Notes: generated from the letters alone by a model not told the origin. Shown: positions 13,431 to 46,316, numbered from the stretch's first letter. The stretch: 64,000 nt of DNA from Nitrospirota bacterium (GCA_029261195.1 JAJDBU010000059.1:147299-211298), one strand, 5' to 3'. Numbers and translations: made by a program.

Positions 13431-13946
13431 TTAACCCACCCACTGTGAGATGGCACTGTAGCCTTTGGCAATATCTTGGGCGATGTTGATTCCGTTCTTA
13501 ATCCCTTTCACTGCTTTATGCAGCTTGGAATCTTTGTTTTCCAGTGCTTCGACTAAACGCCCTAAGCGCTTGGCGATGCCTTTCTTTTTGACTTCTTTTG
13601 GGTTCTTGAAGTTTTCAGCTTGCTCTAAGGCGATTGCGGCATTTTGGAGTTCTTTGGCTTCTTCTTCATCCCCTGCTTGTGTGAGGGATTGAGCCAAATC
13701 GTTTAAATCGCCCTGTAAGCCGATATTGCAGTTGTTGAAATTGAAAGTCGTATGTGTCGATTTATCAGCAATCAATTGATTTGCCTGTCCGCCTAACATC
13801 AAATTTTCAGTCTTTATGTCGTAATTATTAACCGTTTGGCTCAGATTGATTTTTTGTTTAGTAATGTATTCATAGAAAGGAACACTGTCTTTGGATTGAT
13901 TTAGAATCATGCTATCGGGTAACCACACTGGATGTTTCACCTCCAC
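13431..13946 (-). CDS. Hypothetical helical protein coupled to the Roc-COR GTPase
   Basis: 171-aa ORF overlapping the upstream stop by 10 nt. A GGAGG lies inside the overlap. Possible starts are GTG 13946, GTG 13928 and ATG 13910. The C-terminal half is K/E/A-rich and helical. No family recognised. Confidence 0.5.
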   Translation of the reverse strand: MEVKHPVWLPDSMILNQSKDSVPFYEYITKQKINLSQTVNNYDIKTENLMLGGQANQLIADKSTHTTFNFNNCNIGLQGDLNDLAQSLTQAGDEEEAKELQNAAIALEQAENFKNPKEVKKKGIAKRLGRLVEALENKDSKLHKAVKGIKNGINIAQDIAKGYSAISQWVG

Positions 13947-28611: not shown

Positions 28612-29005
28612 ATGCGGAAAACAAAAGGCGAATCGGAGGCTGAAATCAGTAAGGCCTTCATTCACTTTGAAAAAGATTTTATGGGCCGGGGTCCGACGGC
28701 ATGTAAAACCTATAAAAACCTATATATGGATGACATCATTCTCGTCCGCCTAAAAGGCGTTTTGACCCCGGCTGAGCAGCATTTGTCAAAGAATTCGGAA
28801 GGCAGAGAGTTAATCAAAAGGGTGAGGGCCAACCTCATTGAAAATGCCAGAACACTGCTGGCAGAGGTGATTGAAAAGGTGGTTGCCGTGAAGTTTACAA
28901 GCCTCCATACCGACATCAGCACCAAGACCCAAGACTGGCGAACGAGTAATCATCTTCACACTCACTGAAAACCTGGAAGCCCGCTACACGACACTTTCCT
29001 CTTGA
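28612..29005 (+). pseudogene. DUF2294 / MpsC-like protein gene, frameshifted by a 7-bp tandem duplication
   Basis: The N-terminal 105 aa match the MpsC family (EAEISKAFIHFEKDFMGRGP...VRLKGVLTPAEQHL...SLHTDISTKT). The expected continuation GERVIIFTLTENLE is encoded at 28937..29005 in another frame. CCAAGAC is duplicated at 28922-28928 and 28929-28935. Confidence 0.7.
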
Positions 29006-29179
29006 CCTCAGTATTTTGCCCATTGTTTAATATCTTCAGCGGATGACTTTCTGAAATCCCTTATTTAATCAGGGAAGTGGGACAGTCAGCCGCCGCAATA
29101 TATAAACTCGAACTTTTAAATAAAATCGACAAGCCACTATGGATCTCTTGTTATTTGAGGAAGGCCGGAGTGGAAGGTG

Positions 29180-29219
29180 GGCCGGCAAAACTTTGATCAA
29201 AGGAATGCTGGCTTTTTTT
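29180..29219 (+). terminator. Rho-independent terminator / attenuator candidate 30 nt upstream of dabB
   Basis: GCCGGCA (29181-29187) pairs with TGCTGGC (29206-29212), including one G-U pair. Inner CTTT/AAAG helix with a GATC loop. Followed by TTTTTTT (29213-29219). Confidence 0.6.
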
Positions 29220-29248
29220 ATACCCTTTTGAATTAAGGACCCGCTCTC

Positions 29249-30979
29249 ATTCAAAACGTCGTCGCCACCCTCTCAATTCTGATTCCCCTTCTCCCGCTAC
29301 TAGCGGGTCTCCTGATTCCAACCCTGGGAAAGCGAATCGGTGAGCGTGTCTACCTTGTCGGCCTTACCGCGCAGATTATCGCCTTCTTCACAAGCCTGCT
29401 GGCGCTCTATCAAGTGAGTGTCGGTGCGGCCATCCAGATCAATCCCCTGTCCTTTCTGGAAAACGGTATCATGCACGCAGGTCTTTTCATCGATCGCCTG
29501 GCTGCTGTCATGATGGTGCTGGTGACTTCGGTCAGCATTGTCATCCATGTTTTTGCCTCACGTTATCTTCAGGAAGAACAAGGCTTTACCCGCTTCTACA
29601 CCCTGCTCTCGCTCATTACCTTTACGCTGCTGGCCCTGGTTGCAAGCCCGAACCTGCTGATGCTCTTTGTCTTCTGGCAGCTACTGGGCTGGCTGCTTTA
29701 CTTGCTGCTGGCCTACAACATCACCCATCTTCCAAGCGCTCAGGCGGCCTTTAAAACCCTGATTATTCTTCGTGTCGGAGATGTTTTTTTTCTGGGCGGC
29801 GTCATCCTGGCCTATCTTATTTTCGGGACCCTCGATTTTCCCCTACTCTTTGAGAAAGCTGCGGCAGGTCCGATTCCACTTCCTCTTCTTCCGGGAGGCT
29901 TGCTCTCCATTGACGCAGTCACGGCCATCACCCTGCTGATTTTTGTGGGGGCGATGAGCAAGTCGGTCCAATTCCCCTTCCATGTCTGGCTGCCCGATAC
30001 CATGTATGGCCCCTCTCCGGTCTCGGCCCTGATGCACGCGGGTATTGTGAATTCCGGCGGATTTTTATTGAATCGCTTAGCCCCCCTCTACGGGCTTTCC
30101 TCTCCCAGCCTCCACGTGGCCTTTGCGGTCGGCGCGTTCACGACCTTCCTTGGGGCGATCATCATGCTCACTGTGAACGATGTCAAAAAGATGCTCGGCT
30201 ACTCGACTATTGCACAGATGGGCTACATGATCATGGAGTGCGGATTGGGCGCCTTTGCCCTGGCGATCTTCCACTTCATCGCCCACGGCTTGTTTAAAGC
30301 GACCCTCTTTTTAAGCTCGGCCAGCGCCATCGGCGCGGCCCGGAAGGAGCCAAAATTCCCGCATCACGGAGTAGACGATGCCATACCCCCTGCGCCATTC
30401 TCCGTCCTGACCTGGAGTACCGGGCTTGTTACGACCCTCCTGCTTCCCCTGCTTATTTTATTGTCCGCCCATGATCTTTTTCATATCCCGCTGGTCGGGG
30501 CAGGAGCGCATGGGGCCGTCATCTTTCTCTTTTTCTCCTGGGTCACCTCGTCACAGGCCATCCTCAGCCTCTACCGTCTCAATGCAGTGTCCTCCTGGAA
30601 GGTGGCGGGAGCGATGGTGCTGACGCTGATCCTCATTGTATTTACTTACCTCTGGGCGGGAGAACTCTTCACCCATTTCCTCTATCCCGATCCGGGCCTG
30701 GCTGCCTATTATTTTGAGGTCGCAGCATTGCACCCGCTTTTATTCGACCTTGCCATCATCGTTGCGACCTTAGGTACCGTCCTCATCTGGGTCAATCTCT
30801 ACGCCGAGGCCCACGGAAAACGACGAGAGAAACCGGCTTGGATGTCCGCGCTTGAAGAAAAGACCTATGTGTTTTGCATGAAGGGCTTCTATATCGACGG
30901 ACTCTATCAGCGCCTGAATCAAAAAGTGCTTCATGTCATCCAGGTGATTGATAAACGCTATTTGGCGAGGATTCCATAA
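29249..30979 (+). CDS. dabB: DabB / MpsA-like proton-conducting membrane subunit (NuoL/MnhA family)
   Basis: Typical antiporter-like core (WLPDTMYGPSPVSALMHAG, GYSTIAQMGYM). The frame is open from 29237 and encodes a canonical NuoL-type N-terminus (ILIPLLPLLAGLL) upstream of the GTG at 29414. The only start-like codon there is ATT at 29249, 10 nt after AAGGA. Confidence 0.7.
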   Translation: MQNVVATLSILIPLLPLLAGLLIPTLGKRIGERVYLVGLTAQIIAFFTSLLALYQVSVGAAIQINPLSFLENGIMHAGLFIDRLAAVMMVLVTSVSIVIHVFASRYLQEEQGFTRFYTLLSLITFTLLALVASPNLLMLFVFWQLLGWLLYLLLAYNITHLPSAQAAFKTLIILRVGDVFFLGGVILAYLIFGTLDFPLLFEKAAAGPIPLPLLPGGLLSIDAVTAITLLIFVGAMSKSVQFPFHVWLPDTMYGPSPVSALMHAGIVNSGGFLLNRLAPLYGLSSPSLHVAFAVGAFTTFLGAIIMLTVNDVKKMLGYSTIAQMGYMIMECGLGAFALAIFHFIAHGLFKATLFLSSASAIGAARKEPKFPHHGVDDAIPPAPFSVLTWSTGLVTTLLLPLLILLSAHDLFHIPLVGAGAHGAVIFLFFSWVTSSQAILSLYRLNAVSSWKVAGAMVLTLILIVFTYLWAGELFTHFLYPDPGLAAYYFEVAALHPLLFDLAIIVATLGTVLIWVNLYAEAHGKRREKPAWMSALEEKTYVFCMKGFYIDGLYQRLNQKVLHVIQVIDKRYLARIP

Positions 30980-30980
30980 A

Positions 30981-32180
30981 ATGAAAAAGGTCGCCCTGGG
31001 AATCACCCTCGCAACGCACATCGGCCTTTCGGTCTTTTTATCCGGAGGGACGACTTCATTGATGACCCCGCTTGTCCTCCTGCTTCCCCTTGCGGCCACG
31101 TTCACGCTTCTTGCCGCTGATGGACATCTGACGGACAGGGCAGAGCTGCTCACTCTCCTACTCCTTCTGTGTCTTGGCCTGGGCTTCATGATGCTACCAG
31201 GCGGGGCGAGTCTTCTTGCCCTGGGTGGGGTTTTCATTGTCTTGATTGTGCTGCTGTTTCGAGAACAAAGCCGGTCCCGTTTTTCGGTACTTTGGGGTAT
31301 CGGACTCTATGGATTCGCACTGGCGGCCCTCTTTGCCTCTTTTGCAGTCTCTTCCCCGACAGCATCTACTCTATTGTTCATAGCCTATGCCATTCTTCTT
31401 CCCACTTGTCCGCTGCATGGGGCATCCATCGTGTGCGCAAGTCGTCTGCGGGGGATTCCGCCTAATTTTCTTGCGCTCTTTTTGCCGATACTGGGACTGC
31501 ACGGAGCCTTGGGTATCCTCCCCGACCTACCCTCTGCACTCATGAATGTCGTGTCTGTTTTTGCCTTGATCGGCGCGCTTTACGGCGGCATTCGGGCAGT
31601 GGTTCAAACCAACATCCGCCATCGATTGGCCTATGCCGCACTCAGCTTCTGGTCGATTCTCTGGTGGTATCTTGCCTCTCCCGGCATGGAGGCAGCGACG
31701 GCGATGCTTTACCTCTGCGCCCTCGGTCTTATCATGCAGGGACTCTTTGTCAGCGTACAACTACTGGAAAAACGTCATGGCCTGCTGAATCTCGATCAAT
31801 TGGGCGGACTGGCTCAGGTCATGCCTCGTTTCGGTGTCTTATTGAGTCTGCTGGTTGCAGCAGGCATGGGCCTGCCCCTCTTCGGTTCTTTCACAGCCTT
31901 GCTTGCCATGGCGACCTCTCCGGCAACCACACTTTCATGGGGTTTTGTGCTTGTCCTCCTGGCCTGGCTCCTGTCCTCCTGGCATTTTCCCCTTTTCATG
32001 CAGCGCATTCTCATGGGTCCGCCGAAACCCGATAGAATCTACCGCGACCTGGACCGAAGCGAAACCCTTTCTTTAACTCTAATTGTCGTGATGATCGTGA
32101 TACTGGGAATTGCGCCACAAGTCCTTATCGGCTCAGCACAGACACTTTCCGTTCAGAAGGCCAACTCCCGGATAAAATAG
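30981..32180 (+). CDS. Second, short antiporter-like (NuoM/NuoN/MrpD family) membrane subunit
   Basis: The ATG at 30981 lies 1 nt after the dabB stop. Core motifs: RHRLAYAALSFWS, LGGLAQVMP, and GLPLFGSFTALLAM. About 12 TM helices. Confidence 0.6.
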   Translation: MKKVALGITLATHIGLSVFLSGGTTSLMTPLVLLLPLAATFTLLAADGHLTDRAELLTLLLLLCLGLGFMMLPGGASLLALGGVFIVLIVLLFREQSRSRFSVLWGIGLYGFALAALFASFAVSSPTASTLLFIAYAILLPTCPLHGASIVCASRLRGIPPNFLALFLPILGLHGALGILPDLPSALMNVVSVFALIGALYGGIRAVVQTNIRHRLAYAALSFWSILWWYLASPGMEAATAMLYLCALGLIMQGLFVSVQLLEKRHGLLNLDQLGGLAQVMPRFGVLLSLLVAAGMGLPLFGSFTALLAMATSPATTLSWGFVLVLLAWLLSSWHFPLFMQRILMGPPKPDRIYRDLDRSETLSLTLIVVMIVILGIAPQVLIGSAQTLSVQKANSRIK

Positions 32181-32182
32181 AC

Positions 32183-35100
32183 ATGGCTGAAACAAAGATG
32201 AACAAAAAAACAAAGAACGCCTACGACGATTCCGCCCGAATGGGCTTGAGGGGGCTCGTCCGTATCGCCGGTGAAATCAATTCAAGCGTTTGGCCGATGA
32301 CCTCCTTCGTCACCAATAACCCGCTGCATTCCCTGGAATATCTCGATTTTGAAGAAGCCATCCGTCTGGGTCGTGAGCGGATCGGCGGCTTAGGCTATCT
32401 CTCAAATACATTTTACCGGGACTATTACCGGTCCGGGCGTATTCTTTTGGAAGACATCGATCAGGCCCTTAAAACACGGGTACAGGATGAAAGCATTCAA
32501 CTTGGAAATCGCGAATTGAGCCATAAAGAAGTCCTTCGCATCCGCCTTCTTGTCCCGACGGCTCCGCCGAAAACAGCGGCCGCAGACATCCTGCTTCAAA
32601 TTGCAGAAGACGCAGGCGGCCTGAAAAAACTGTCGGAAAAACTGAAAGGGACCATCAAAGCCCCATCAATCGAAGAACAAATCGCCGCCATGCAAAAAGC
32701 GGATTCGGGCAAACTGGCCCATCACCAAAGCCTTTCCCGATGGTGTGACGAAAGTTTCGGGACGGAGATCTCCGAAAAAATCAACAAGGAAATGACCCAT
32801 TGGTGCGGGGCTTTTTTGGATGAGGGACAGGCCCCCTGGGAAATGCCCGGTAGAGAACAGGGCTTTTACACGGCATGGAAACGCGCCGCACAAGAGTATT
32901 GTGAGGGTAGCGGTATCCGCAATATCCGGGAGAAGATCAGCCGTCTTTCAGAACATGCTGAATCTGCTGTGCTGGAAAGCCTTGATCTGCTGGGGATTCC
33001 ATCGTCTGCACGGGAAGCCTACCTTTCACTTCATCTTGCCGCGCTTCCCGGCTGGACGGCCTTTGCCAAGTGGCGGTCACGGCAGACTGAATATGAATGG
33101 CAGAAGGCTTATCCGATTGATCTGGTTCAGATGCTGGCCGTTCGTTTGTGGTATGAGCGGGAATGGGTATTAACGCTTTGTGATGAAAAAATCCGTCCGG
33201 GAGATGAAAACGCCTATGGGACGATTCTCACCTACATGGAACAATGCTCCGCAGCACATTTTTTCAGAAAGGAAGGTGTTGCAGGCCACTTGCCCGCCTG
33301 GCTTTCAGAGGAGGTTGATCTTCTGCTTTATGCCGATCTCTCCCGACAGACAAAAGGCTGGGATCAACTGGCCGCAGACTACGAAAACGAAGAGAGCCCG
33401 GATCGAGACCGCCTTGCCTGTCTTTCCGCTGCCTGGCAACTCACGGCCCTTGCTTATGAACTGAAGATCAATGCTGAACACCTGCACGACCTCCCGACGG
33501 ACAGGCTCTTGACCCTGCTTGCCTGGCTGGAAGACTTCCCTGAATCCCGACACGGACCCTATTGGCTGGCGGCTTTTGAGGCGGGTTATCGGCGGACACT
33601 GATCGAAAAATTGCAACGAAATATCGTCAAAAGTACGGAACGAAATGCGACATCTTCAAATGGCCGTCCCCTGGCCCAGGCCATCTTCTGTATTGATGTC
33701 CGTTCGGAACCCTTCCGTCGTCAACTGGAACAGGTCGGTCATTACGACACCTACGGCTTTGCCGGTTTTTTTGCGGCCTTCATCCGTTATCGCGCCTTTG
33801 GCAGCCACCACGACACCGACCTCTTCCCCGTGGTGATGGAAGCCAAGAATGTCGTCCATGAAATCCCCAGAATCTCTGAAGAAAAACACGTCTCCCGTCA
33901 CCTGGCCGGAACAAAACTCCTCCATGCGGGACACACCCTTTTTCACGACCTGAAAGAAAACGTCATCACCCCCTATGTCATGGTCGAATCCATCGGCTGG
34001 TTTTTCGCCTTTCCCTTTTTCGGGAAAACCTTCTGGCCCGTGCAATATGCAGCCTGGGTCAAGCGCCTGCTGAAACGCTTTGCCCCGCCCATCGCCACCA
34101 CTCTAACAGTGGATAAATCAAGTAAGGCGGAGGTGGAAGAAATCATCATTTCCGAACAGTGTGTGACGATTCGTCAGGCCCTTCGAGCATGGCTTAATCG
34201 ATCGGTCAGTGATGTTCCCCACAATCGGATTGAAGCCCTGCGTGAATGGGCCTTGAGCGGAAGTTTGTCGCAAGCGGAGGGTAGGAAAAAAACACATCAG
34301 AAGACCCTGAGCCTCTTTAAATCCAAAGCAGACGCAAGCGCCTTTGTTGAAGAACTCAGCAAGCGCTATCGGATCACTCCCGGATGGTCTTCGGCCCGAA
34401 TGGAGCAGGTGACACGGACAGGTTATACGGTGAAGGAACAGGCCTTTACGGTCGAAACGGCCTTTAGGGTGATGGGGCTCACGGACAATTTCGCCCCTTT
34501 TGTTCTGCTTTGCGCCCACGGCAGCAGCAATGAAAACAACCCCTTCGAGGCGGCCCTCGACTGCGGGGCCTGCGGCGGAAATCCCGGTGGCCCCAATGCG
34601 CGGGTTTTAGCGGCGATGGCGAACAAACCGGCCATCCGAAAATTACTCGCCAAAAAAGGACTGCTCATCCCGGAAGACACCTGGTTTATCGCCGCTCAGC
34701 ATGATACAACCACGGATGAAGTCAGCCTTTTTGACTTGGAAGAACTCCCCTCAAGCCATCATGAAGCGCTTTCCCGACTCAAAGACGATCTAAAAAAAGC
34801 CGCTCTGCTGAACAATGCAGAACGCTGTCGCACCCTGTCCAATCTTAAGACCGACCTTTCTCCGGAAGAGGCCTCAAAAGATGTGCAAAAACGCAGTAAG
34901 TCCTGGAACCAGGTAAGACCTGAATGGGGACTTTCAGGCAATGCGGCATTCATCATCGGTCATCGCGATTTGACGGAAGGTCTTGATTTGGCGGGTCGAG
35001 TCTTTCTTCATTCCTACGACACAGAGGCCGATCCGGAAGGCGCAAAGCTCGAAATCATCATGACCGGCCCCCAGGTGGTGACCCAGTGGATCAGCATGGG

Positions 35101-35443
35101 ATACTATTTTTCCATCGTCGATAATGAGGTCTACGGAAGCGGAAACAAGATTTATCATAATGTGGCCGGACGGATCGGGGTCATGTACGGGGCAAGCAGT
35201 GATTTGAGGACGGGGCTGCCCTGGCAGAGTGTCAGCAGGGACAACCGTCCCTATCATGAACCCATGCGCCTGCTGGTTGTCATTGAGGCTCCGAGGGCAC
35301 GCATTGACCCGATTATCGCGAGGCATCAAATTTTACAGCGTTATTATCACAATCGTTGGGTGAATTTAGTCGCCCTGGATGCGGGCTGCTTTTATCAATA
35401 TCTGCCGAGTGGCGAGTGGGTACGGGTACAAAAATCACCGTAG
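32183..35443 (+). CDS. dabA: DabA / MpsB (DUF2309) inorganic-carbon pump subunit
   Basis: 1086 aa with beta-carbonic-anhydrase-like metal-ligand motifs FCIDVRSE and CAHGSS...LDCGACGG. Starts 2 nt after the preceding stop. Confidence 0.85.
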   Translation: MAETKMNKKTKNAYDDSARMGLRGLVRIAGEINSSVWPMTSFVTNNPLHSLEYLDFEEAIRLGRERIGGLGYLSNTFYRDYYRSGRILLEDIDQALKTRVQDESIQLGNRELSHKEVLRIRLLVPTAPPKTAAADILLQIAEDAGGLKKLSEKLKGTIKAPSIEEQIAAMQKADSGKLAHHQSLSRWCDESFGTEISEKINKEMTHWCGAFLDEGQAPWEMPGREQGFYTAWKRAAQEYCEGSGIRNIREKISRLSEHAESAVLESLDLLGIPSSAREAYLSLHLAALPGWTAFAKWRSRQTEYEWQKAYPIDLVQMLAVRLWYEREWVLTLCDEKIRPGDENAYGTILTYMEQCSAAHFFRKEGVAGHLPAWLSEEVDLLLYADLSRQTKGWDQLAADYENEESPDRDRLACLSAAWQLTALAYELKINAEHLHDLPTDRLLTLLAWLEDFPESRHGPYWLAAFEAGYRRTLIEKLQRNIVKSTERNATSSNGRPLAQAIFCIDVRSEPFRRQLEQVGHYDTYGFAGFFAAFIRYRAFGSHHDTDLFPVVMEAKNVVHEIPRISEEKHVSRHLAGTKLLHAGHTLFHDLKENVITPYVMVESIGWFFAFPFFGKTFWPVQYAAWVKRLLKRFAPPIATTLTVDKSSKAEVEEIIISEQCVTIRQALRAWLNRSVSDVPHNRIEALREWALSGSLSQAEGRKKTHQKTLSLFKSKADASAFVEELSKRYRITPGWSSARMEQVTRTGYTVKEQAFTVETAFRVMGLTDNFAPFVLLCAHGSSNENNPFEAALDCGACGGNPGGPNARVLAAMANKPAIRKLLAKKGLLIPEDTWFIAAQHDTTTDEVSLFDLEELPSSHHEALSRLKDDLKKAALLNNAERCRTLSNLKTDLSPEEASKDVQKRSKSWNQVRPEWGLSGNAAFIIGHRDLTEGLDLAGRVFLHSYDTEADPEGAKLEIIMTGPQVVTQWISMGYYFSIVDNEVYGSGNKIYHNVAGRIGVMYGASSDLRTGLPWQSVSRDNRPYHEPMRLLVVIEAPRARIDPIIARHQILQRYYHNRWVNLVALDAGCFYQYLPSGEWVRVQKSP

Positions 35444-35532
35444 GGGCAGACCTGCGTGTCTGCCCGGTTTTGGATCGGACATGAGAGGGCCAACACATAG
35501 GTTCGCCCTCTCTACAGTAAAGGAAAAATCAT

Positions 35533-35871
35533 ATGAACAGTTTAGTGCTTCACCCGATGAAAGAGGTCCGGGTGATTGTTCCGGGCGAACATCAGGGTTT
35601 CGTAATTGAAATATTTGATGCCCTCCATATTTCGGGCTACACCATCATCAAAAATCTGGCAGGGAAAGGGCATCATGGTCTCCACACCTCCCATACCATG
35701 TTTGATGAGACGGAAAGCCGCCTGATGATTATGACAGTCGTTTCAGAAGAAAAGGTGGCACCCATCCTTGCAGGCTTGGCCCCGCTTTTCGGCCGCCATT
35801 CCGGCGTGATGTTTGTCAGCGATGTTTCAGTCAGCCGCCTGGAATATTTTTCCGAATCATCGAAAAAATGA
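35533..35871 (+). CDS. P-II-like small regulatory protein
   Basis: 112 aa with a beta-alpha-beta layout (KEVRVIVPGEH...GYTII...GKGHHG...MIMTVV), as in the P-II-family proteins often encoded beside DAB genes. Confidence 0.55.
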   Translation: MNSLVLHPMKEVRVIVPGEHQGFVIEIFDALHISGYTIIKNLAGKGHHGLHTSHTMFDETESRLMIMTVVSEEKVAPILAGLAPLFGRHSGVMFVSDVSVSRLEYFSESSKK

Positions 35872-39245: not shown

Positions 39246-41573
39246 TTATTCCGGTACCGGAACGAAACCGTCCCTCAGTTCTTCCGGCCCCACCGTTACT
39301 TTTCCGCCATTGCTTTGCATGAATGCAATGATCGTCAGTAGTTCCTGCTCTGAAAGCCCGATGGGCGGTTTATTGATGACGGGCATTTGTGCTGAAAACT
39401 CAACCGGCTTTCCAGCATCGAAGTCCAGTTTGACATAGGCCGCAGGCTTGACCAGCGCCTCATGGATAAACTCACGGGTTAATCGCGCCCCCACCCCGGA
39501 AAGGTTCGGACAACGACCTTGGCCCGGACCGATGGCGTGGCACAAGGCGCACTGGCCCTTGCTGTAGAATATTTCCTGCCCGATTTGAACCAGATCATCT
39601 TTGGTTTTAATCTTTGTCAGATCCAGGGCCTTCTTTTCGGGAGGTAAGCCGATCTTCTGCGGCACTTGGTAGCCGATATAGGCGTAGGCGAATAAAAAGA
39701 CGCTGACAACGCCGACGACTTTCAGAATCACAAAACGGGGACGACCGGCATCCTTTGCAGTATCTTTTCGATGCTCAGGCCGATGCTCACCAAAGAGATC
39801 CACAAGATACATCAAGACAGAAGGAATAAAAAAATAGCGTGTAGAAAAGCGATTGAGGCGTATCGTGTGTGAAGTCCAAAAAATAATGCCGACTAAAAGA
39901 AAAAAAATCGCCGTACTCATCACAAAAAGGGCGGAAGCGACCCCTAAAGTCGGCGTATAAGCATAAGCAGAGGTATCTTCCATGACCCCATAGATATGCC
40001 AGTGCACACGCGATGCGGAACGGGCATAGCCCATCATGGACATGGTTAAAACGACGAAGACCGCATTGACGATCAGCGCATACTGGGAGCGTTTCGGCAT
40101 CACGCCCCACTTCATTTCATGTGTCAGTTTTGCCGACCTGAGAGAAAGGGCCGTCAGCGGTGTGATCGTACAAAGAACGAAGAGAACCGCGAGGACCTGA
40201 GCCACGGAAAGCACATTCACCCGATAGACAGAGGGAACGAAATAACCGTAAACCCCGAGCCAGATGATGTAGACCACTGCGCCGCTAATCAGAACAACCG
40301 TAAAAATATTCGCCGCCTTCCCCCATTTCACCGTCACCACCTTGTCTGCACGCCAATAGAGGATGAAGCAGATGAAGGTCGTGATAATCATGAGGTTCAC
40401 AGCCGTCAACTTGGCCGACATCACCCCGAAGACTCCAAGCAGAGGATGGTGCGCCCCCCCCATCGCCCTTTCCTCGGCAACACTGGCTACAAGAGAATGA
40501 GGCGTCAGCCAAACCGCAAAAGAGCCGACTAAAACCACGAGCATAATGACAATGGGCATCTTGTACTTTTGGGCGGAGGAAGTTCGATAGGCGATCCCCT
40601 GCCAGAAATAGTAGTTTGCCCCGACGAAAAGCACGCCGATGAGCACCGCCTGGAGGATGAAAAGCCAGGAGAGGATGCCTCCCATGAGCATAATCCCCAT
40701 CTGCTGGTTATATTCATAGATTTCGCGCATCAGGTAGTAGCCCGCGAAAGGCATCGGAAGGATCCCGAAAACACCGATAAAATTTCCGGTATAGCCCATC
40801 CAGTCGTAATGTTCCCGCTCTTCCTGTGTTTTTGCGCCTAAATACGCAACCCCGGCATAAGCACCGCAGACAAAGCCTCCCAGAACAATATTGCCGACAA
40901 TTCGGTGTATATTCACGGGCCACCATGTCGGGTTGTTCATGGCGGCCCAGGCCCGTTCCCACTCCCCTAATTCCGGATTCAAGACCACGGGGCTTGCCTG
41001 GAAGGAGAGAAAACCACTCGGAAGACACATCACCGCAAATCCGAAAAGATTGAGCATCACCCCCCAAAAAACATGAAGGGCTTTTCGATCCTTCCATTTT
41101 TCCCACTTGGACCAATAGTAGTAGATCGAGGTTGTCTCGCCTATAAACAGGCCGAGATAGACGTAGTAGGCCGGCTTAAAGATGCCTGTCATCACGCTCA
41201 TGAGTTCAGGATAAAAAACGAGGAGCGTAAAAAGAAAAAGCATCCCAAGCGTTGCAGTCGTTGCAAAACAGGCGACGATCAGGTCGGTAAATTCCTTGGC
41301 GAGACGGTCATAGCGTTTTTCACCGGTTGAAATGCCGATGATTTCGACAATGAGGACAAATATGGGCACACCCAACACGAATGCGCCGAATAAGATGTGC
41401 AACTGGGCTAACATCCAGATCAGATTACGGCTGCCGATGCCAGCGATATCGCGATAACGCACAGCAGAGCCGGTCTCCGCAAAGACCACTGTTGAAGGGA
41501 GCAAGAGCAGCGCCATTAAAAGGAAGACCGCCCAAACAACTGAATTATTATATTTTTTAATTGAATTTCTCAT
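39246..41573 (-). CDS. Cytochrome bd-like oxidase subunit I homolog fused to a C-terminal class I cytochrome c domain
   Basis: CydA-like N-terminal helices (AQLHILFGAFVLGVPIF; NPTWWPVNIHRIVGN) and about 14 TM helices. The C-terminal domain has CALCH plus a distal Met (AQMPV). No cydB-like gene is adjacent. Confidence 0.7.
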   Translation of the reverse strand: MRNSIKKYNNSVVWAVFLLMALLLLPSTVVFAETGSAVRYRDIAGIGSRNLIWMLAQLHILFGAFVLGVPIFVLIVEIIGISTGEKRYDRLAKEFTDLIVACFATTATLGMLFLFTLLVFYPELMSVMTGIFKPAYYVYLGLFIGETTSIYYYWSKWEKWKDRKALHVFWGVMLNLFGFAVMCLPSGFLSFQASPVVLNPELGEWERAWAAMNNPTWWPVNIHRIVGNIVLGGFVCGAYAGVAYLGAKTQEEREHYDWMGYTGNFIGVFGILPMPFAGYYLMREIYEYNQQMGIMLMGGILSWLFILQAVLIGVLFVGANYYFWQGIAYRTSSAQKYKMPIVIMLVVLVGSFAVWLTPHSLVASVAEERAMGGAHHPLLGVFGVMSAKLTAVNLMIITTFICFILYWRADKVVTVKWGKAANIFTVVLISGAVVYIIWLGVYGYFVPSVYRVNVLSVAQVLAVLFVLCTITPLTALSLRSAKLTHEMKWGVMPKRSQYALIVNAVFVVLTMSMMGYARSASRVHWHIYGVMEDTSAYAYTPTLGVASALFVMSTAIFFLLVGIIFWTSHTIRLNRFSTRYFFIPSVLMYLVDLFGEHRPEHRKDTAKDAGRPRFVILKVVGVVSVFLFAYAYIGYQVPQKIGLPPEKKALDLTKIKTKDDLVQIGQEIFYSKGQCALCHAIGPGQGRCPNLSGVGARLTREFIHEALVKPAAYVKLDFDAGKPVEFSAQMPVINKPPIGLSEQELLTIIAFMQSNGGKVTVGPEELRDGFVPVPE

Positions 41574-43117
41574 GTCACATGCCTTAAAAACGCAAGGCGT
41601 TTAACCAAACACATAAATACAGCGCTTCCTTTTCTGTAGAAATAATCCGTATCCAGACTGATCTGCTTTTCCGGCTTCAACTTCTTCAAGAACAGCATAA
41701 AGGCCAAGAGCGTAAAACCCAGATACTGAAAGGCTTCAACGAGGTGGCCCATCGTGTAGGGATGATAGTCCATTGGATGGGGCAGCATGTCATAGAGCAA
41801 TCCGGGAAAAAGGCCAAAAGAGACACAGATCAATGCAAGAATTCTCATTGCCCACAACATGTGAGCAGGCGGATCTTTCGCCGTAATTTTCCAGCCTTCC
41901 CCCCGAGCTTCTCCAAGAAAAATCGTATAGATGAGTTTCAAGGGTGTCAGCCAGGTCCCGCAGGCGGCAAAGACAAGCATCAATATCACCCAGCCCTGAT
42001 GTGCTTCAGCCGCAGCTGAAACAACAATCGACTTGCTCACAAATCCCAGAAGCGGGGGCAGACCCGCAATGGAAAAGCCCCCGATCACGAACAGAAGAAA
42101 GGTCCAGGGCATACTTTTGTAAAGCCCTCCCAGCTCGCTTTGCTTTCGCCCTCCCGTCATGTGGGTGACGGAACTGATACCCATCATGAGCAGGGCCTTA
42201 TAAATAATATTAGTGAACGCGAGGGAGACCGCGCCGTTGATTCCCAGCGCAGTGCCGATACCGATCCCTGTAATCATGTATCCGTTCTGACTGATCAGAT
42301 GGTAACACCAGGCCCGTTGACAATTATTTTCATTGACCACATACATCACGCCGTAAACCGCCATAACGGCCCCCAGGACAATCAGGATGGGCGTTCCGGG
42401 AAAACCGCGAATCAAGGCATAAATCGCCGTCTTTGTTGTAAAGACACTCAGAAAAATTACACCGGTCAATGTTGCTTCGGGATAGGCATCTGCCAGCCAG
42501 GCATGAACCGGCGGCACTGCCGCGTTAATCAGGAAGCCCATGAGCATCATGATCGGGCCTAATCCCATTTGCGGAAAAGCATCAAATGTGATTCCGCCAC
42601 CACTCGCGACATGCATCGTAATCCCGCCAAGCAGTAAAATTCCGCCGGTAATGTGAACCAGCATATAACGCATGCCGGCAGCATTAGACGCTTTTCCCCC
42701 CCGTAACCAAATCAAGAAGACAGAGGAAAACGAAGCAATTTCCCAGAATAGAAAGAAGGTAAAGAGGTCGCCCGCAAAGACCGCACCCACTGCACTGCCG
42801 ACGTAGAGCAGCGCGGCCATATGTTCACGGCAATCTTTCACATGTAAAGCAAAGACAAAGCTTGCAAAAGCACTCACCATAAAAACAGCGCCGAATCCTA
42901 GGCTTAATTTGTCGACACGACCGAAGATCAGGTCATGACCGATAAAAGGAAGGACACCATGTGTTCCCTGCGAAGCGGAAAGGATTGCAAGCAAGCCCAG
43001 CGCTGGGATCGAAAGCAGCAGCGCAGAACGGCTTCTTCCTTTTACAAGGGGAAGAAGCGCTGCGCCAAGATAGAAGAACAGGGAGGGTTGCACCCACTCA
43101 ATCATCGTTATTCTCAA
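41570..43117 (-). CDS. MrpD/NuoN-type antiporter-like membrane subunit (2)
   Basis: Proton_antipo_M-type core: FFLFWEIASFSS, PVHAWLADAYPEA, and GGLYKSMPWTF. Its stop overlaps the bd-like oxidase start (ATGA). Confidence 0.75.
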   Translation of the reverse strand: MRITMIEWVQPSLFFYLGAALLPLVKGRSRSALLLSIPALGLLAILSASQGTHGVLPFIGHDLIFGRVDKLSLGFGAVFMVSAFASFVFALHVKDCREHMAALLYVGSAVGAVFAGDLFTFFLFWEIASFSSVFLIWLRGGKASNAAGMRYMLVHITGGILLLGGITMHVASGGGITFDAFPQMGLGPIMMLMGFLINAAVPPVHAWLADAYPEATLTGVIFLSVFTTKTAIYALIRGFPGTPILIVLGAVMAVYGVMYVVNENNCQRAWCYHLISQNGYMITGIGIGTALGINGAVSLAFTNIIYKALLMMGISSVTHMTGGRKQSELGGLYKSMPWTFLLFVIGGFSIAGLPPLLGFVSKSIVVSAAAEAHQGWVILMLVFAACGTWLTPLKLIYTIFLGEARGEGWKITAKDPPAHMLWAMRILALICVSFGLFPGLLYDMLPHPMDYHPYTMGHLVEAFQYLGFTLLAFMLFLKKLKPEKQISLDTDYFYRKGSAVFMCLVKRLAFLRHVT

Positions 43118-43123
43118 ATTTCA

Positions 43124-44662
43124 TCAGCCTGTCACCTGTTTAATCAGATCCAGAAAAAGGTCCGGGAAAATCCCCAATAGAATAGAAAGTGCAGCCGTCA
43201 CGCACAAAGGAATCACACAAAACAGGGGCTCCTTCACTCGGATTTCAGGCACAGGGAATTCAGTCCCCTCCAAGCCTCGCCCTCCGCCTTCCTCAAGGCC
43301 ATCTTTGTCCCCTGCAAGGGCAAGCGACAGCCTCTTGTCAGGCGCCTTAAAAAAAGCCTGATGGACAATCGGTAAAAAATAAAAAGCGTTTAATAAACCA
43401 CTGCTGAGCATCACAAAAAACATGGGCGCCTGATTGGCCTCAACTGAACCCAGCAACAAATACCACTTGCTTAAGAAGCCGGCAGAGGGTGGCACGCCAA
43501 TCATGCTCAAGCTTGCAATGGCAAAGGCCCCCATCGTCCAGGGCATCTGCCGACCCATGCCATTGAGTTGAGACACCTTGGTCTTTTGCGTCGCCACATA
43601 GATTGCACCCGCACAGAAGAAGAGTGTGATTTTAGAAACCGCATGATTGACAATGTGTAAAATACCGCCGGTCAGCCCGCTGGAGCTTAGGAGCACCGCG
43701 CCCAAGACCATGTAGGAAAGCTGACTCACCGTAGAATAGGCAATCCGTTCCTTGAGGTTATCCCGCGACAAGGCATAGATCGATGCCATAATAATCGTAA
43801 AACCGGCGAGGGTGCTGGCAATTGATCCGACATTCAGGGTCTTCAGCAGGTCCACACCGAAGGTATTGAGGACAACGCGCAAAATACAAAATGCTCCGGT
43901 ATTCACCACTGCAACGGCATGCAGGAGCGCACTGACCGGTGTGGGGGCAACCATGGAAGCAGGTAACCAGGCAGAAAAAGGCATCAGCGCCGTCTTGGTC
44001 GCGCCGAAGAGGAAAAGGAAAAAAATAAGGACCAGGGTGCTTGATGCCATATCCGCAGGGAAAATGCCGCTTGCCGTAAAATCAAGTGTTCCAGCGTGGT
44101 AGTAGCTTAAGAAAATGGCGATTCCCAGGAAAACCTTCGAGGGCGCCATCAGATATAAGAGGTACTTATTCCCTCCAAGCCAGGCCTCCTTTGTTTCATG
44201 ATGCACGACCAGAGGGTAGGTAAAGAAGGTAATCAGTTCATAAAAGAAAATGAGCGTCAACCAGTTATTGGAAAAAGCCGCCCCCATGGTCGCAAACAGC
44301 GTCACTGCAAAAAAGAAATAGAAGCGGGTCTGTGAATGCTCATTGAGGCCGCGCATATATCCGATAGAGTACAAGGTGGTCAAGATCCAGGTAAAGGAGG
44401 AGACTAGGGCAAAAAGCAGCCCCAGGCCATCCACCCGGAAGCCCGTGGGAACAGAAGGCCATATCGTGAAGAGGGTATAACGAAGGGTTTTCCCCTCAAG
44501 GACGGGGGGGATCATGCTCAGCACAGCAAAAAACATCAAGACCCCTGCCACAAGGGAACATCCCTCCCGAAGATTTTTATGCTTCCGGGTGACAAGGATC
44601 AGCAGGGCCCCGATAAAAGGGATCAATGCTGCGACAAAGGGTTTGATGGATTCCATTTCCAT
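43124..44662 (-). CDS. MrpD/NuoM-type antiporter-like membrane subunit (1)
   Basis: FFYELITFFTYPLV, FSAWLPASMVAPTPVSALLHA, RIAYSTVSQLSYM, and LNGMGRQMPW. It sits 6 nt upstream of the next gene. Confidence 0.75.
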   Translation of the reverse strand: MEMESIKPFVAALIPFIGALLILVTRKHKNLREGCSLVAGVLMFFAVLSMIPPVLEGKTLRYTLFTIWPSVPTGFRVDGLGLLFALVSSFTWILTTLYSIGYMRGLNEHSQTRFYFFFAVTLFATMGAAFSNNWLTLIFFYELITFFTYPLVVHHETKEAWLGGNKYLLYLMAPSKVFLGIAIFLSYYHAGTLDFTASGIFPADMASSTLVLIFFLFLFGATKTALMPFSAWLPASMVAPTPVSALLHAVAVVNTGAFCILRVVLNTFGVDLLKTLNVGSIASTLAGFTIIMASIYALSRDNLKERIAYSTVSQLSYMVLGAVLLSSSGLTGGILHIVNHAVSKITLFFCAGAIYVATQKTKVSQLNGMGRQMPWTMGAFAIASLSMIGVPPSAGFLSKWYLLLGSVEANQAPMFFVMLSSGLLNAFYFLPIVHQAFFKAPDKRLSLALAGDKDGLEEGGGRGLEGTEFPVPEIRVKEPLFCVIPLCVTAALSILLGIFPDLFLDLIKQVTG

Positions 44663-44909: not shown

Positions 44910-45356
44910 TTAGAAACCCGATTGCCGGCCGACGGTTGATTCAACATAACAGTCAAGAATATCTCTACGTGCAACGATACCAATCAATTTCCCTTTAGGG
45001 TCGACTACGGGTACGCGGATGAGGTGTCGCGCCTGGAGAAGGTCAATCACCTCCATGACCGGCGTCTCTTCCTCAATGGTGACCACTGACTGCGTCATGA
45101 CCTCTGAGGCGGGAGTCTCACGCAGATATTTCCCTTTCATCAAGGCATTTAGAATATCGAATTCACTCACAAGGCCGATCAGCATCCTTTCCGAGTTAAT
45201 GACCGGGATGCTCCCAAAGCCCCTTTTGAACAATGTATCCGCGATGTCATGGCAGGAAGTCTCTTTATCGACGGAAACAACATTTCTTTCCATCAAGTGA
45301 GAGGCCTTGACCTCGGCCATGCTTTTTCCACCCACGCGAAAATCTGTTAGTCGCAT
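44910..45356 (-). CDS. CBS-pair domain protein (tandem paralog B)
   Basis: The ATG at 45356 follows AAGGAG. Two CBS motifs (GSIPVINSERMLIGLVSEFDIL and IRVPVVDPKGKLIGIVARRDIL). Confidence 0.8.
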   Translation of the reverse strand: MRLTDFRVGGKSMAEVKASHLMERNVVSVDKETSCHDIADTLFKRGFGSIPVINSERMLIGLVSEFDILNALMKGKYLRETPASEVMTQSVVTIEEETPVMEVIDLLQARHLIRVPVVDPKGKLIGIVARRDILDCYVESTVGRQSGF

Positions 45357-45382
45357 CGTCAAACTCCTTTTTCTATTGTCGT

Positions 45383-45844
45383 TCAAACATCATGTTTAAA
45401 GCCAGGGAGCGGCCCGAAGCCTGATTTGGCATAACATCCCAGAATATCTCTCCGCGAAATAATCCCGATCAAGATCTCTTCGGCATCGACCACCGGTACC
45501 CGGATAAAGTGTTTAGACAGAAGGAGGTGTATCACCTCCTCTATCGGCATCTCCTCTGTAATCGATATAACGGGCTTCGCCATGATCTCAACAGCGAGTG
45601 TCTCGCGCAGATCCATTCCTTCTTTCAGCGCTTCCATGAGGTCATATTCACTCACAACCCCGATCAACTCCTTTTTATGGTTGGTGATCGGGATACTGCC
45701 AAATCTCCCTTTAAGCATGGTCTCTGCCAGCACATTGCAGTAAGTCTCTTTACCAAAGGAGATCACCTCTCGATTCATCATGTGGGAGGCGGTCATCTCC
45801 GTCATGCTTTTTCCCCCGACACGGAAAGCCAGTCGTTGATTCAT
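45383..45844 (-). CDS. CBS-pair domain protein (tandem paralog A)
   Basis: The ATG at 45844 (MNQRLAFRVGGKSM) is chosen by alignment with paralog B (MRLTDFRVGGKSM). Two CBS motifs. Confidence 0.75.
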   Translation of the reverse strand: MNQRLAFRVGGKSMTEMTASHMMNREVISFGKETYCNVLAETMLKGRFGSIPITNHKKELIGVVSEYDLMEALKEGMDLRETLAVEIMAKPVISITEEMPIEEVIHLLLSKHFIRVPVVDAEEILIGIISRRDILGCYAKSGFGPLPGFKHDV

Positions 45845-46316
45845 AGCTGCTATCCTTTCTCTCTTTATATGATTTGTTGAGACGTGAACACCTGAAAACT
45901 CAGTACGACCTTCATCAGTACGACCTTCAGTTGATGAACTTACAAGCGATCTGTCCCCTACCTCCTGCTTCACCCTGAGGCCAAAATCCTTCAAGGACAG
46001 CATCAGCGTGGTACTCGTCAAAATAATTCCCGCTTCATTTGGAGAATTGCGACTTGCGATCATAACATAGACCGCAATAGTCAGGCCAATCAGAAATTAA
46101 AAATCTACACTTAGAATAAGAATAAAAACAATGACTTAAAGTCTGAAAGTCCAGGACGATCTGGAGGCGATTTTGTGATGTTGTCTAAAGGTGTCCATCT
46201 GCGTAGATTCAAAGAAATACTGTTAGACATTTTTATTGACAAAAATGTCCTGAACTCACTTGAGTCTTTCTGATTCTCTCTAGCTCATTACGCGGGATTC
46301 TTGATTTCGCGCGGCC

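What the first reader, a model, noticed from the sequence alone, without database searches (positions are those of the whole stretch)
28612..35871. Elaborated DAB/Mps inorganic-carbon pump locus: MpsC-like, DabB, an extra antiporter-like subunit, DabA, P-II-like
Seen in the sequence: five co-oriented genes. They are a DUF2294/MpsC-like gene, a NuoL-like DabB, a second 399-aa NuoM/N-like subunit starting 1 nt after the dabB stop, a 1086-aa DUF2309 protein starting 2 nt later with the beta-CA-like ligand motifs FCIDVRSE and AHGSS...LDCGACGG, and a 112-aa P-II-like protein. Established knowledge: DabA-DabB (MpsB-MpsA in Staphylococcus, with MpsC) form an energy-coupled CO2/bicarbonate uptake system usually described as a two-component pump. 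Inference: the tightly coupled additional antiporter-like subunit suggests a three-subunit membrane module with two ion channels per DabA. The P-II-like gene suggests metabolite control. Neither feature belongs to the canonical two-gene description.
Basis: partly seen in the sequence, partly recalled or inferred. Interest (0 to 1): 0.6.

Follow-up and report, generated by a model that had tools for sequence, protein, structure and literature searches.

The report
DAB1-type CO2 pump with long DabC
This is a three-subunit DAB1-type CO2-uptake pump (DabB, DabC, DabA) with its P-II regulator, a system already described in other bacteria; the only unusual part is that the "extra" membrane subunit is a nearly full-length but inactivated copy of a complex I proton channel, not the usual half-size DabC.

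Summary
The five genes are real and lie at the stated coordinates. DAB1 is a DabA-DabB-DabC heterotrimer (T. albus cryo-EM preprint). The Nitrobacter hamburgensis DAB1 operon has the same order: dabB, dabC, dabA, P-II.

The window's P-II matches the solved carboxysome-associated CPII (E 4e-28). Residues 131-378 of the 399-aa protein are homologous to the whole of canonical 253-aa DabC (hhalign 99.1%, E 6e-19). The whole protein aligns end to end with NuoM (99.7%, E 4e-27; Foldseek TM 0.82-0.84).

All five NuoM proton-path residues tested are hydrophobic in the window protein and in all 27 family members. The Glu-bearing TM5 segment has no counterpart. "Two ion channels per DabA" is therefore not supported. 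The protein is most likely a structural or allosteric pseudo-antiporter.

The long DabC is conserved: 180 genome hits, nearly all Nitrospirota among the best 80. The order dabB-dabC-dabA holds in 66 of 76 loci. It is not a fragment of DabB.

What is new is modest: a long DabC that still matches PF00361 and links NuoM to short DabC. Side findings are a conserved ATT start for dabB and a 7-bp duplication that frameshifts mpsC.

The parts
28612..28968 (+). mpsC (PF10057/DUF2294), probably inactivated near its 3' end
   Evidence: Pfam E 7e-31, but only profile positions 1-101 of 111 are matched. A tandem CCAAGAC duplication at 28922-28935 shifts the frame. The +1 frame continues as TGERVIIFTLTENLE... 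to a stop at 29003-29005, which matches the conserved ...GERVFVFT... C-terminus of Nitrospira MpsC.
29002..29033 (+). conserved sigma-70-like promoter candidate for the dab operon (TTGACC, 18 nt, TTTAAT)
   Evidence: The block TTGACCTCAnnnTTTnnnnCATTGTTTAAT is shared by the window, L003 and L005 upstream of dabB, although the upstream genes differ. It was not detected by the simple consensus scan. Function is inferred.
29249..30979 (+). dabB (NuoL-like proton-conducting subunit, about 576 aa) with a non-canonical ATT start
   Evidence: PF00361 E 2e-47 and PF00662 E 4.5e-12. It is 39% identical to N. hamburgensis DabB1 over most of its length. The TM7 Lys motif MSKSVQFPFHVWLPD and the HGLFKAT motif are present. 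The frame is open from 29237 and the only start-like codon before the conserved TM1 is ATT at 29249, conserved in L003 and L005.
30981..32180 (+). long-form dabC: a 399-aa NuoM-like pseudo-antiporter subunit
   Evidence: PF00361 E 7e-12. hhalign against canonical DabC gives probability 99.1%, E 5.7e-19, with residues 131-378 matching DabC 2-245. hhalign against NuoM gives 99.7%, E 4e-27 over 410 columns. The AF2 model has pLDDT 84 and pTM 0.85 with broken TM7- and TM12-like helices. Foldseek top hits are ND4/NuoM at TM 0.82-0.84. The proton-path residues are all hydrophobic.
32183..35443 (+). dabA (DabA1-type beta-carbonic-anhydrase-like cytoplasmic subunit, 1086 aa)
   Evidence: PF10070 E 2e-261. 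The Zn-ligand motifs align with DabA2 of PDB 9rd0. The N. hamburgensis DabA1 hit is the only one of 126 plasmid hits that covers at least 80% of the query in a single place (94%, one piece).
35444..35465 (+). G+C-rich hairpin followed by GGTTTTGG, between dabA and the P-II gene
   Evidence: Terminator-like site. Function was not tested. It could be an attenuator or an RNA-stability element.
35533..35871 (+). CPII-type P-II protein (112 aa)
   Evidence: PF00543 E 5e-20. E 4e-28 over residues 1-103 to PDB 5D4N/5D4L. 46% identical to the P-II encoded after dabA1 in N. hamburgensis. A P-II gene follows dabA in 62 of 76 related loci.

Best explanation
The locus is a DAB1-type (DabABC) energy-coupled CO2-hydrating pump from a Nitrospirota (class Nitrospiria) genome. 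It is transcribed as dabB-dabC-dabA followed by a CPII-type P-II gene, with a damaged mpsC gene upstream. By analogy with the solved DAB1 and DAB2 complexes, DabB conducts protons down the proton motive force. This drives conformational changes in the buried zinc site of DabA, so that CO2 is hydrated to bicarbonate in one direction only. The 399-aa protein is DabC. It sits beside DabB where NuoM sits beside NuoL, but it does not conduct ions because every tested channel residue is hydrophobic. It most likely acts as a structural or allosteric support that the complex needs. Here DabC is a long form that keeps almost the whole NuoM fold. The published DabC keeps only the C-terminal part, about 250 aa. 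The P-II protein most likely tunes pump activity to adenine-nucleotide or bicarbonate status, as proposed for CPII and SbtB. Shown here: domain content, homologies, loss of the channel residues, and conservation of the gene order. Inferred: complex formation, transport activity and regulation.
For: Domains were found for all five genes. The gene order and sizes match the N. hamburgensis DAB1 operon, which reads DabB 565, DabC 253, DabA 1037, P-II 108 aa. That operon is listed as a DabC-containing DAB1 in Supplementary Table 6 of the DAB1 structure preprint. Long DabC against canonical DabC gives hhalign 99.1%, E 5.7e-19. Long DabC against NuoM gives 99.7%, E 4e-27. Fold search places it with ND4/NuoM at TM 0.82-0.84. 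K234, K265, H322, H348 and E407 are hydrophobic in 27 of 27 members and in canonical and fused DabC, whereas genuine NuoM hits keep K234, H322, H348 and E407. P-II matches the CPII structures. Of 76 related loci with a separate dabC, 66 show B-C-A and 59 show B-C-A-P. The literature reports that DabC is essential, shows no ordered water chain and has hydrophobic channel residues.
Against: The DabC here is 399 aa and matches PF00361, unlike the published description of about half of NuoM with no Pfam match. The extra N-terminal 130 residues may add a function not seen in the solved complex. mpsC is frameshifted and dabB lacks a canonical start, which could mean the locus is decaying. Against that, the ATT start is conserved in two relatives and dabC, dabA and the P-II gene are intact. 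No carboxysome genes were found among the window ORFs scanned, so the name 'carboxysome-associated' does not fit the P-II here.
Confidence: 0.8

Rival explanations
1. One reading: the 399-aa protein is an active second antiporter-like channel, so each DabA is driven by two ion paths.
For: It matches PF00361. It is translationally coupled to dabB and dabA. It has a near-complete antiporter-like fold with the two broken helices.
Against: The five NuoM channel residues tested are L, F, F, L and L, and they are hydrophobic in all 27 family members. The Glu-bearing TM5 segment aligns to a gap. No acidic or basic residue is conserved in residues 1-125 except R94 at a helix end. In the solved DAB1 complex DabC shows no water chain.
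Confidence: 0.04
2. The ORF is a split-off fragment of DabB, from gene fission, a frameshift or an assembly artefact.
For: DabB and DabC are fused into one protein of 848-877 aa in anammox Planctomycetota and other lineages. They are recorded as 'fused' in Aquificota.
Against: There is no BLASTP similarity to DabB (E 0.66). DabB here aligns almost to the end of N. hamburgensis DabB1, reaching residue 572 of 580 in the 29237-frame translation. In the fusions, the part that matches the window protein is the C-terminal DabC domain, not DabB. The gene is a separate ORF in 76 of 80 related loci.
Confidence: 0.02
3. The long N-terminal half gives DabC an added role that short DabC lacks. Examples are docking a further antiporter-like subunit (the second DabB paralogue of Nitrospira) or lining a hydrophobic gas path for CO2.
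For: The N-terminal helices are conserved across the family. 41 of 76 loci carry an extra intact dabB paralogue directly upstream. The former polar path is uniformly hydrophobic.
Against: The window itself has no second dabB. Loci with a single dabB have the same long DabC. In the T. albus model the CO2 channel opens to the cytosol through DabA, not through DabC.
Confidence: 0.1
4. The locus is decaying and non-functional.
For: mpsC has a frameshift. dabB has no ATG/GTG/TTG start before its conserved TM1.
Against: The ATT codon, the purine-rich stretch before it and the encoded N-terminus are conserved in L003 and L005. dabC, dabA and the P-II gene have intact frames and conserved catalytic motifs.
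Confidence: 0.04

Closest known systems
DAB1 (DabA1-DabB1-DabC) of Halothiobacillus neapolitanus, Thermocrinis albus and Nitrobacter hamburgensis
   Same: The gene order is dabB-dabC-dabA-P-II. DabA is long, about 1040-1090 aa. DabB is NuoL-like. DabC is NuoM-derived and has no proton-path residues.
   Different: DabC here is 399 aa (436 aa in Nitrospira) and matches PF00361. It aligns with NuoM end to end apart from the TM5 segment. Published DabC is about 250 aa and is described as having no Pfam match: 25 of 27 long-form members match PF00361, against 1 of 24 canonical DabC members. The host phylum is Nitrospirota, whose autotrophs are reported to use the rTCA cycle. No carboxysome genes were found among the window ORFs scanned.
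DAB2 / MpsAB / two-subunit DAC (H. neapolitanus DabA2B2, PDB 9rd0; S. aureus MpsAB)
   Same: Both have a PF10070 DabA with the same Zn-ligand motifs and a NuoL-like DabB.
   Different: DAB2 has no third membrane subunit. Its DabA is shorter (827 aa), and the alignment to the window DabA breaks into five pieces.
NuoM / ND4 of respiratory complex I
   Same: The fold and the sequence profile match. The position next to a NuoL-like partner is inferred.
   Different: All tested channel residues are lost and the TM5 segment has no counterpart. The NCBIfam NuoM score of 97 bits is far below the 264-bit cutoff.
CPII, the carboxysome-associated P-II protein (PDB 5D4L/5D4N; name given from my own knowledge of Wheatley et al. 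2016)
   Same: The match covers the full length at E 4e-28, and the gene lies directly after dabA.
   Different: No carboxysome genes are nearby. Ligand binding was not tested.

Membership tests
DAB1 (DabABC) inorganic-carbon pump | DabA: PF10070 protein with the Cys/Asp/His/Cys zinc-ligand motifs | tested here: met
   PF10070 E 2e-261. FCIDVRSE and HGSS...LDCGAC align with the same motifs of DabA2 in PDB 9rd0.
DAB1 (DabABC) inorganic-carbon pump | DabB: NuoL-like PF00361 subunit encoded next to dabA, with proton-path residues kept | tested here: met
   PF00361 and PF00662. 39% identity to N. hamburgensis DabB1. The TM7 Lys and HGLFK motifs are invariant in the 4-sequence alignment.
DAB1 (DabABC) inorganic-carbon pump | DabC: third membrane protein encoded between dabB and dabA, homologous to canonical DabC | tested here: met
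   hhalign probability 99.1%, E 5.7e-19, covering DabC residues 2-245. The gene position is the same as in N. hamburgensis.
DAB1 (DabABC) inorganic-carbon pump | [quoted passage not shown] | tested here: not met
   399 aa, PF00361 E 7e-12. It aligns with NuoM over 410 columns. This is a long-form variant of the subunit.
DAB1 (DabABC) inorganic-carbon pump | DabC lacks the hydrophilic proton-path residues of NuoM | tested here: met
   K234, K265, H322, H348 and E407 correspond to L139, F167, F223, L248 and L307. These positions are hydrophobic in 27 of 27 members.
DAB1 (DabABC) inorganic-carbon pump | The three subunits form a complex, accumulate inorganic carbon and rescue CA-free E. coli | not testable with these tools
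   No multimer prediction or experiment is available.
Proton-translocating antiporter-like subunit (NuoM/NuoN/MrpD) | Conserved TM5 Glu, TM7 and TM8 Lys, connecting His residues, and TM12 Glu or Lys | tested here: not met
   Genuine NuoM hits treated in the same way keep K234, H322, H348 and E407.
CPII-type P-II protein | Full-length sequence similarity to the solved CPII, and a gene adjacent to the DAB genes | tested here: met
   E 4e-28 to 5D4N. 46% identity to the N. hamburgensis DAB1-linked P-II.
CPII-type P-II protein | Nucleotide and bicarbonate binding; association with a carboxysome locus | not testable with these tools
   Binding cannot be tested. No carboxysome genes were found among the window ORFs scanned.
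MpsC (PF10057) | Complete MpsC domain | tested here: not met
   Only profile positions 1-101 of 111 are matched. The 7-bp duplication removes the conserved C-terminal strand.

The most novel reading that the evidence does not exclude
The long DabC of Nitrospirota is more than a relic. Its conserved N-terminal half may be a functional addition that short DabC lacks. It could be a docking face for the second DabB paralogue that many Nitrospira encode, giving a NuoN-NuoM-NuoL-like three-subunit membrane arm with two live proton channels around a dead central one. Alternatively it could be a hydrophobic route for CO2. A weaker and much more likely version is that it is the evolutionary intermediate showing that DAB1 arose from a NuoL/NuoM-type antiporter pair.
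Probability: 0.15. Interest if true: 0.55.

Novelty: new variant of a known kind. Interest (0 to 1): 0.3.

Why it matters
It matters mainly for classification and evolution. The locus shows that the DabC subunit of DAB1 CO2 pumps is a degenerate NuoM. In Nitrospirota it survives as a nearly full-length form detectable by sequence, and this form links complex I/Mrp-type antiporter pairs to the minimal DabC. That gives a natural series for testing which parts of DabC the pump needs: long DabC, short DabC, fused DabB-DabC, and no DabC in DAB2. It also warns annotators that a second PF00361 gene in a DAB locus is DabC, not a NuoM or a second ion channel. It does not change the known mechanism of DAB pumps.

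Tried and rejected
- The PDB sequence search found only DAB2 (9rd0) and no T. albus DAB1 entry, so DabC could not be compared with a solved chain.
- The paper on one-, two- and three-subunit DACs (Schmid 2021) is not held in the library.
- The DabA homologue search returned only Nitrospirota in its top 120 hits, so canonical DAB1 loci were reached instead through a tblastn of plasmids, which found N. hamburgensis.
- Rfam found nothing in the locus.
- The consensus promoter scan missed the conserved upstream element, which was found only by comparing relatives.
- The idea that the 399-aa gene is a recent dabB duplicate was rejected because there is no similarity.
- The idea that the missing canonical dabB start means a pseudogene was rejected because the ATT codon and the encoded N-terminus are conserved.
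- A weak alignment placing NuoM E144 opposite the LLPLAAT motif (2.6 bits) was not used. The profile-profile alignment was preferred.
Full report
**1. Observation**

Five co-oriented ORFs lie at 28612-35871. Pfam assigns them as follows:
- MpsC, PF10057, E 7e-31.
- A NuoL-like protein, PF00361 plus PF00662.
- A 399-aa protein with a weak PF00361 match, E 7e-12.
- A 1086-aa DabA, PF10070, E 2e-261.
- A 112-aa P-II, PF00543, E 5e-20.

One base separates the dabB stop from the next ATG. Two bases separate the next stop from the dabA ATG. The zinc-ligand motifs FCIDVRSE and HGSS...LDCGAC align with those of DabA2 in PDB 9rd0.

**2. The architecture is that of the published DAB1 class**

H. neapolitanus DAB1 was described as a three-gene cluster. 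It has DabA1 of 1046 aa, DabB1 of 559 aa and a third gene between them, inside an operon that also holds a P-II gene (10.1101/476713).

A 2026 preprint solved the T. albus DAB1 complex as a DabA-DabB-DabC heterotrimer (10.64898/2026.05.01.722082). It reports that DabC:
- has no Pfam match;
- aligns structurally with the NuoM helices next to NuoL;
- has hydrophobic residues where NuoM has its proton path;
- shows no water chain;
- is nonetheless required in vivo.

A tblastn of the window DabA against plasmids found 126 records. Only one of them, the N. hamburgensis plasmid, covered at least 80% of the query in a single place (94%, one piece, 35% identity). That locus reads DabB 565 aa, a 253-aa hypothetical protein, DabA 1037 aa and P-II 108 aa. 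This is the same order as in the window. The locus is listed as a DabC-containing DAB1 in the preprint's Supplementary Table 6.

The window proteins match the N. hamburgensis ones. DabB is 39% identical. P-II is 46% identical. The window P-II also matches the solved P-II proteins 5D4N/5D4L over its full length at E 4e-28. From my own knowledge these entries are the carboxysome-associated CPII protein.

**3. The 399-aa protein is a long form of DabC**

- Pairwise BLASTP against the N. hamburgensis DabC gives only a weak collinear match at the C-termini (E 9e-5).
- A profile of 27 relatives of the window protein (A1) was compared with a profile of 24 canonical DabC proteins of 241-270 aa (A2). 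hhalign gives probability 99.1% and E 5.7e-19. Window residues 131-378 cover DabC residues 2-245.
- The window protein is therefore an N-terminal stretch of about 130 residues followed by a complete DabC domain.
- The same A1 profile aligns with genuine NuoM proteins over 410 columns (99.7%, E 4e-27). It hits E. coli NuoM in the PDB at 1.4e-16.
- The AlphaFold2 model has pLDDT 84 and pTM 0.85. It shows five N-terminal helices, followed by the broken TM7- and TM12-like helices typical of antiporter-like subunits.
- Foldseek ranks ND4/NuoM chains first, with TM-scores of 0.82-0.84 normalised to the query.
- The short DabC profile is much further from NuoM. Its best NuoM/ND4-type hit covering nearly its whole length is at 2e-4. 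Only 1 of 24 short members matches PF00361, against 25 of 27 long members.
- The long form is thus a sequence bridge between NuoM and canonical DabC.

**4. It is not a second ion channel**

The E. coli NuoM residues K234, K265, H322, H348 and E407 were mapped through the family profile. The roles of these residues are taken from my own knowledge of complex I. They correspond to L139, F167, F223, L248 and L307 in the window protein. The same positions are hydrophobic in all 27 family members.

Fused and canonical DabC proteins show the same loss. Four genuine NuoM hits from the same search keep K234, H322, H348 and E407.

In the profile-profile alignment, the NuoM segment around the conserved TM5 Glu (FWE..L.PM...WGG) faces a gap. 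No acidic or basic residue is conserved in residues 1-125 except R94, which lies at a helix end.

A structural or allosteric role, as proposed for DabC in the preprint, is the best reading.

**5. It is neither an artefact nor a DabB fragment, and it is conserved**

- The protein has no similarity to the adjacent DabB (E 0.66).
- DabB itself is complete.
- A scan of one genome per GTDB species found 180 stretches encoding relatives. The best 80 comprise 77 records titled Nitrospirota (or untitled 'uncultured bacterium') and 3 anammox Planctomycetota.
- I annotated these loci with phmmer. Of 76 loci with a separate dabC, the counts are:

| Feature | Loci |
|---|---|
| dabB-dabC-dabA order | 66 |
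| dabB-dabC-dabA-P-II order | 59 |
| mpsC present (usually divergently transcribed) | 49 |
| a second dabB paralogue directly upstream | 41 |

- In the three anammox loci, and in several database proteins of 850-877 aa, DabB and a short DabC domain are fused into one protein. This agrees with the 'fused' entries for Aquificota in the preprint's table.
- Long, short and fused DabC thus all exist, alongside DAB2 systems that have none. The whole-database profile search found 108 cluster representatives at E <= 1e-30.

**6. Two corrections to the gene models**

dabB start. The dabB frame is open from 29237, but it has no ATG, GTG or TTG before GTG 29414. The region in between encodes the conserved first helix (SILIPLLPLLAGL...), which aligns with the N-terminus of NdhF/NuoL. 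The window and two relatives, L003 and L005, share the sequence CTC ATT CA(A/G) AA(C/T), preceded by a purine-rich stretch. The protein sequence is conserved from that ATT onward. I therefore place the start at ATT 29249, giving about 576 aa. This is an inference from conservation.

mpsC frameshift. mpsC carries a tandem CCAAGAC duplication at 28922-28935. It shifts the frame, so the product ends ...TKTQDWRTSNHLHTH instead of ...TKTGERVIIFTLTENLE.... The latter is encoded in the +1 frame and matches the conserved C-terminus of Nitrospira MpsC. This is either a real inactivation or a sequencing error.

A conserved promoter-like element (TTGACC, 18 nt, TTTAAT, at 29002-29031) lies downstream of mpsC. 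It is shared with L003 and L005, whose upstream genes are different. The dab genes probably have their own promoter. mpsC is not detected in the nearest relatives L003-L005.

**7. Mechanism**

Shown here:
- the subunit set;
- the intact catalytic and DabB motifs;
- the dead channel in DabC;
- the conserved operon.

Inferred from the DAB1 and DAB2 structures:
- DabB admits a proton.
- This switches DabA between a state open to CO2 and water and a state that releases bicarbonate to the cytoplasm.
- DabC braces DabB.
- The P-II protein adjusts activity to metabolic state.

All surveyed members of Nitrospirota are reported to carry at least one DAC, and the phylum's autotrophs use the rTCA cycle (PMC13147460).

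**8. Novelty and verdict**

The three-subunit arrangement and the P-II linkage are already known. The new element is the long DabC, which matches PF00361 and retains nearly the whole NuoM fold. The preprint describing DabC does not report such a form. None of the DabA1 entries I read in its list of 50 is from Nitrospirota (part 1 of 2 of the table). No other paper in the searched library uses the name DabC for this system. I could not read Schmid 2021, which may mention such forms.

Verdict: a new variant of a known kind, of modest interest.

Noticed in passing
window 28922-28935: A 7-bp tandem duplication (CCAAGAC twice) frameshifts mpsC and removes its conserved C-terminal strand. The intact reading continues in the +1 frame to 29005.
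   Followed up: yes
window 29249; L003 7275; L005 728: dabB appears to start at a conserved ATT codon in this Nitrospiria clade. No canonical start precedes the conserved first transmembrane helix. A rare AUU start could imply translational control.
   Followed up: partly
window 29002-29033; also upstream of dabB in L003 and L005: A promoter-like block (TTGACC, 18 nt, TTTAAT, embedded in CATTGTTTAAT) is conserved although the upstream genes differ. In the window it lies about 215 nt before the ATT start, which leaves a long 5' leader.
   Followed up: partly
L002 4303-6246 (Nitrospira japonica) and 41 of 76 related loci: Many Nitrospira carry a second, apparently intact dabB paralogue directly upstream of dabB-dabC-dabA-P-II. 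It is 50% identical to the window DabB and keeps the TM7 Lys and HGLFK motifs. The window lacks it.
   Followed up: partly
L006, L009, L013 (anammox Planctomycetota); L007; proteins P0281, P0299, P0302: DabB and a short DabC domain are fused into single proteins of about 850-877 aa. The DabC part is 40-46% identical to window residues 128-380.
   Followed up: partly
window 39246-44662, minus strand: Two MrpD-like antiporter subunits of 512 and 515 aa reach their NCBIfam cutoffs. Directly downstream of them on the minus strand, with a 4-base overlap, is a 775-aa protein that combines a cytochrome bd subunit I-like domain with a cytochrome c domain. Two CBS-domain genes lie upstream (44910-46063). 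This is a separate antiporter-like module in the same window.
   Followed up: partly
window 35444-35465: A G+C-rich hairpin with a weak T-tract lies immediately after the dabA stop and before the P-II gene. It may be an attenuator or a processing site.
   Followed up: no
L003 10215-13500: In the closest genome relative, dabA is split into two ORFs of 172 and 890 aa. This is probably a frameshift in that MAG.
   Followed up: no
L059 1-2600, minus strand: One Nitrospira MAG has an additional two-gene DAB2-like pair (DabB 562 aa plus a partial DabA) on the opposite strand next to mpsC.
   Followed up: no
window 13937-15985 (minus strand) and 7545-9335: A bacterial Roc-COR (Roco) GTPase of 682 aa and a T6SS Tle1-like phospholipase-domain protein of 596 aa lie elsewhere in the window.
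   Followed up: no
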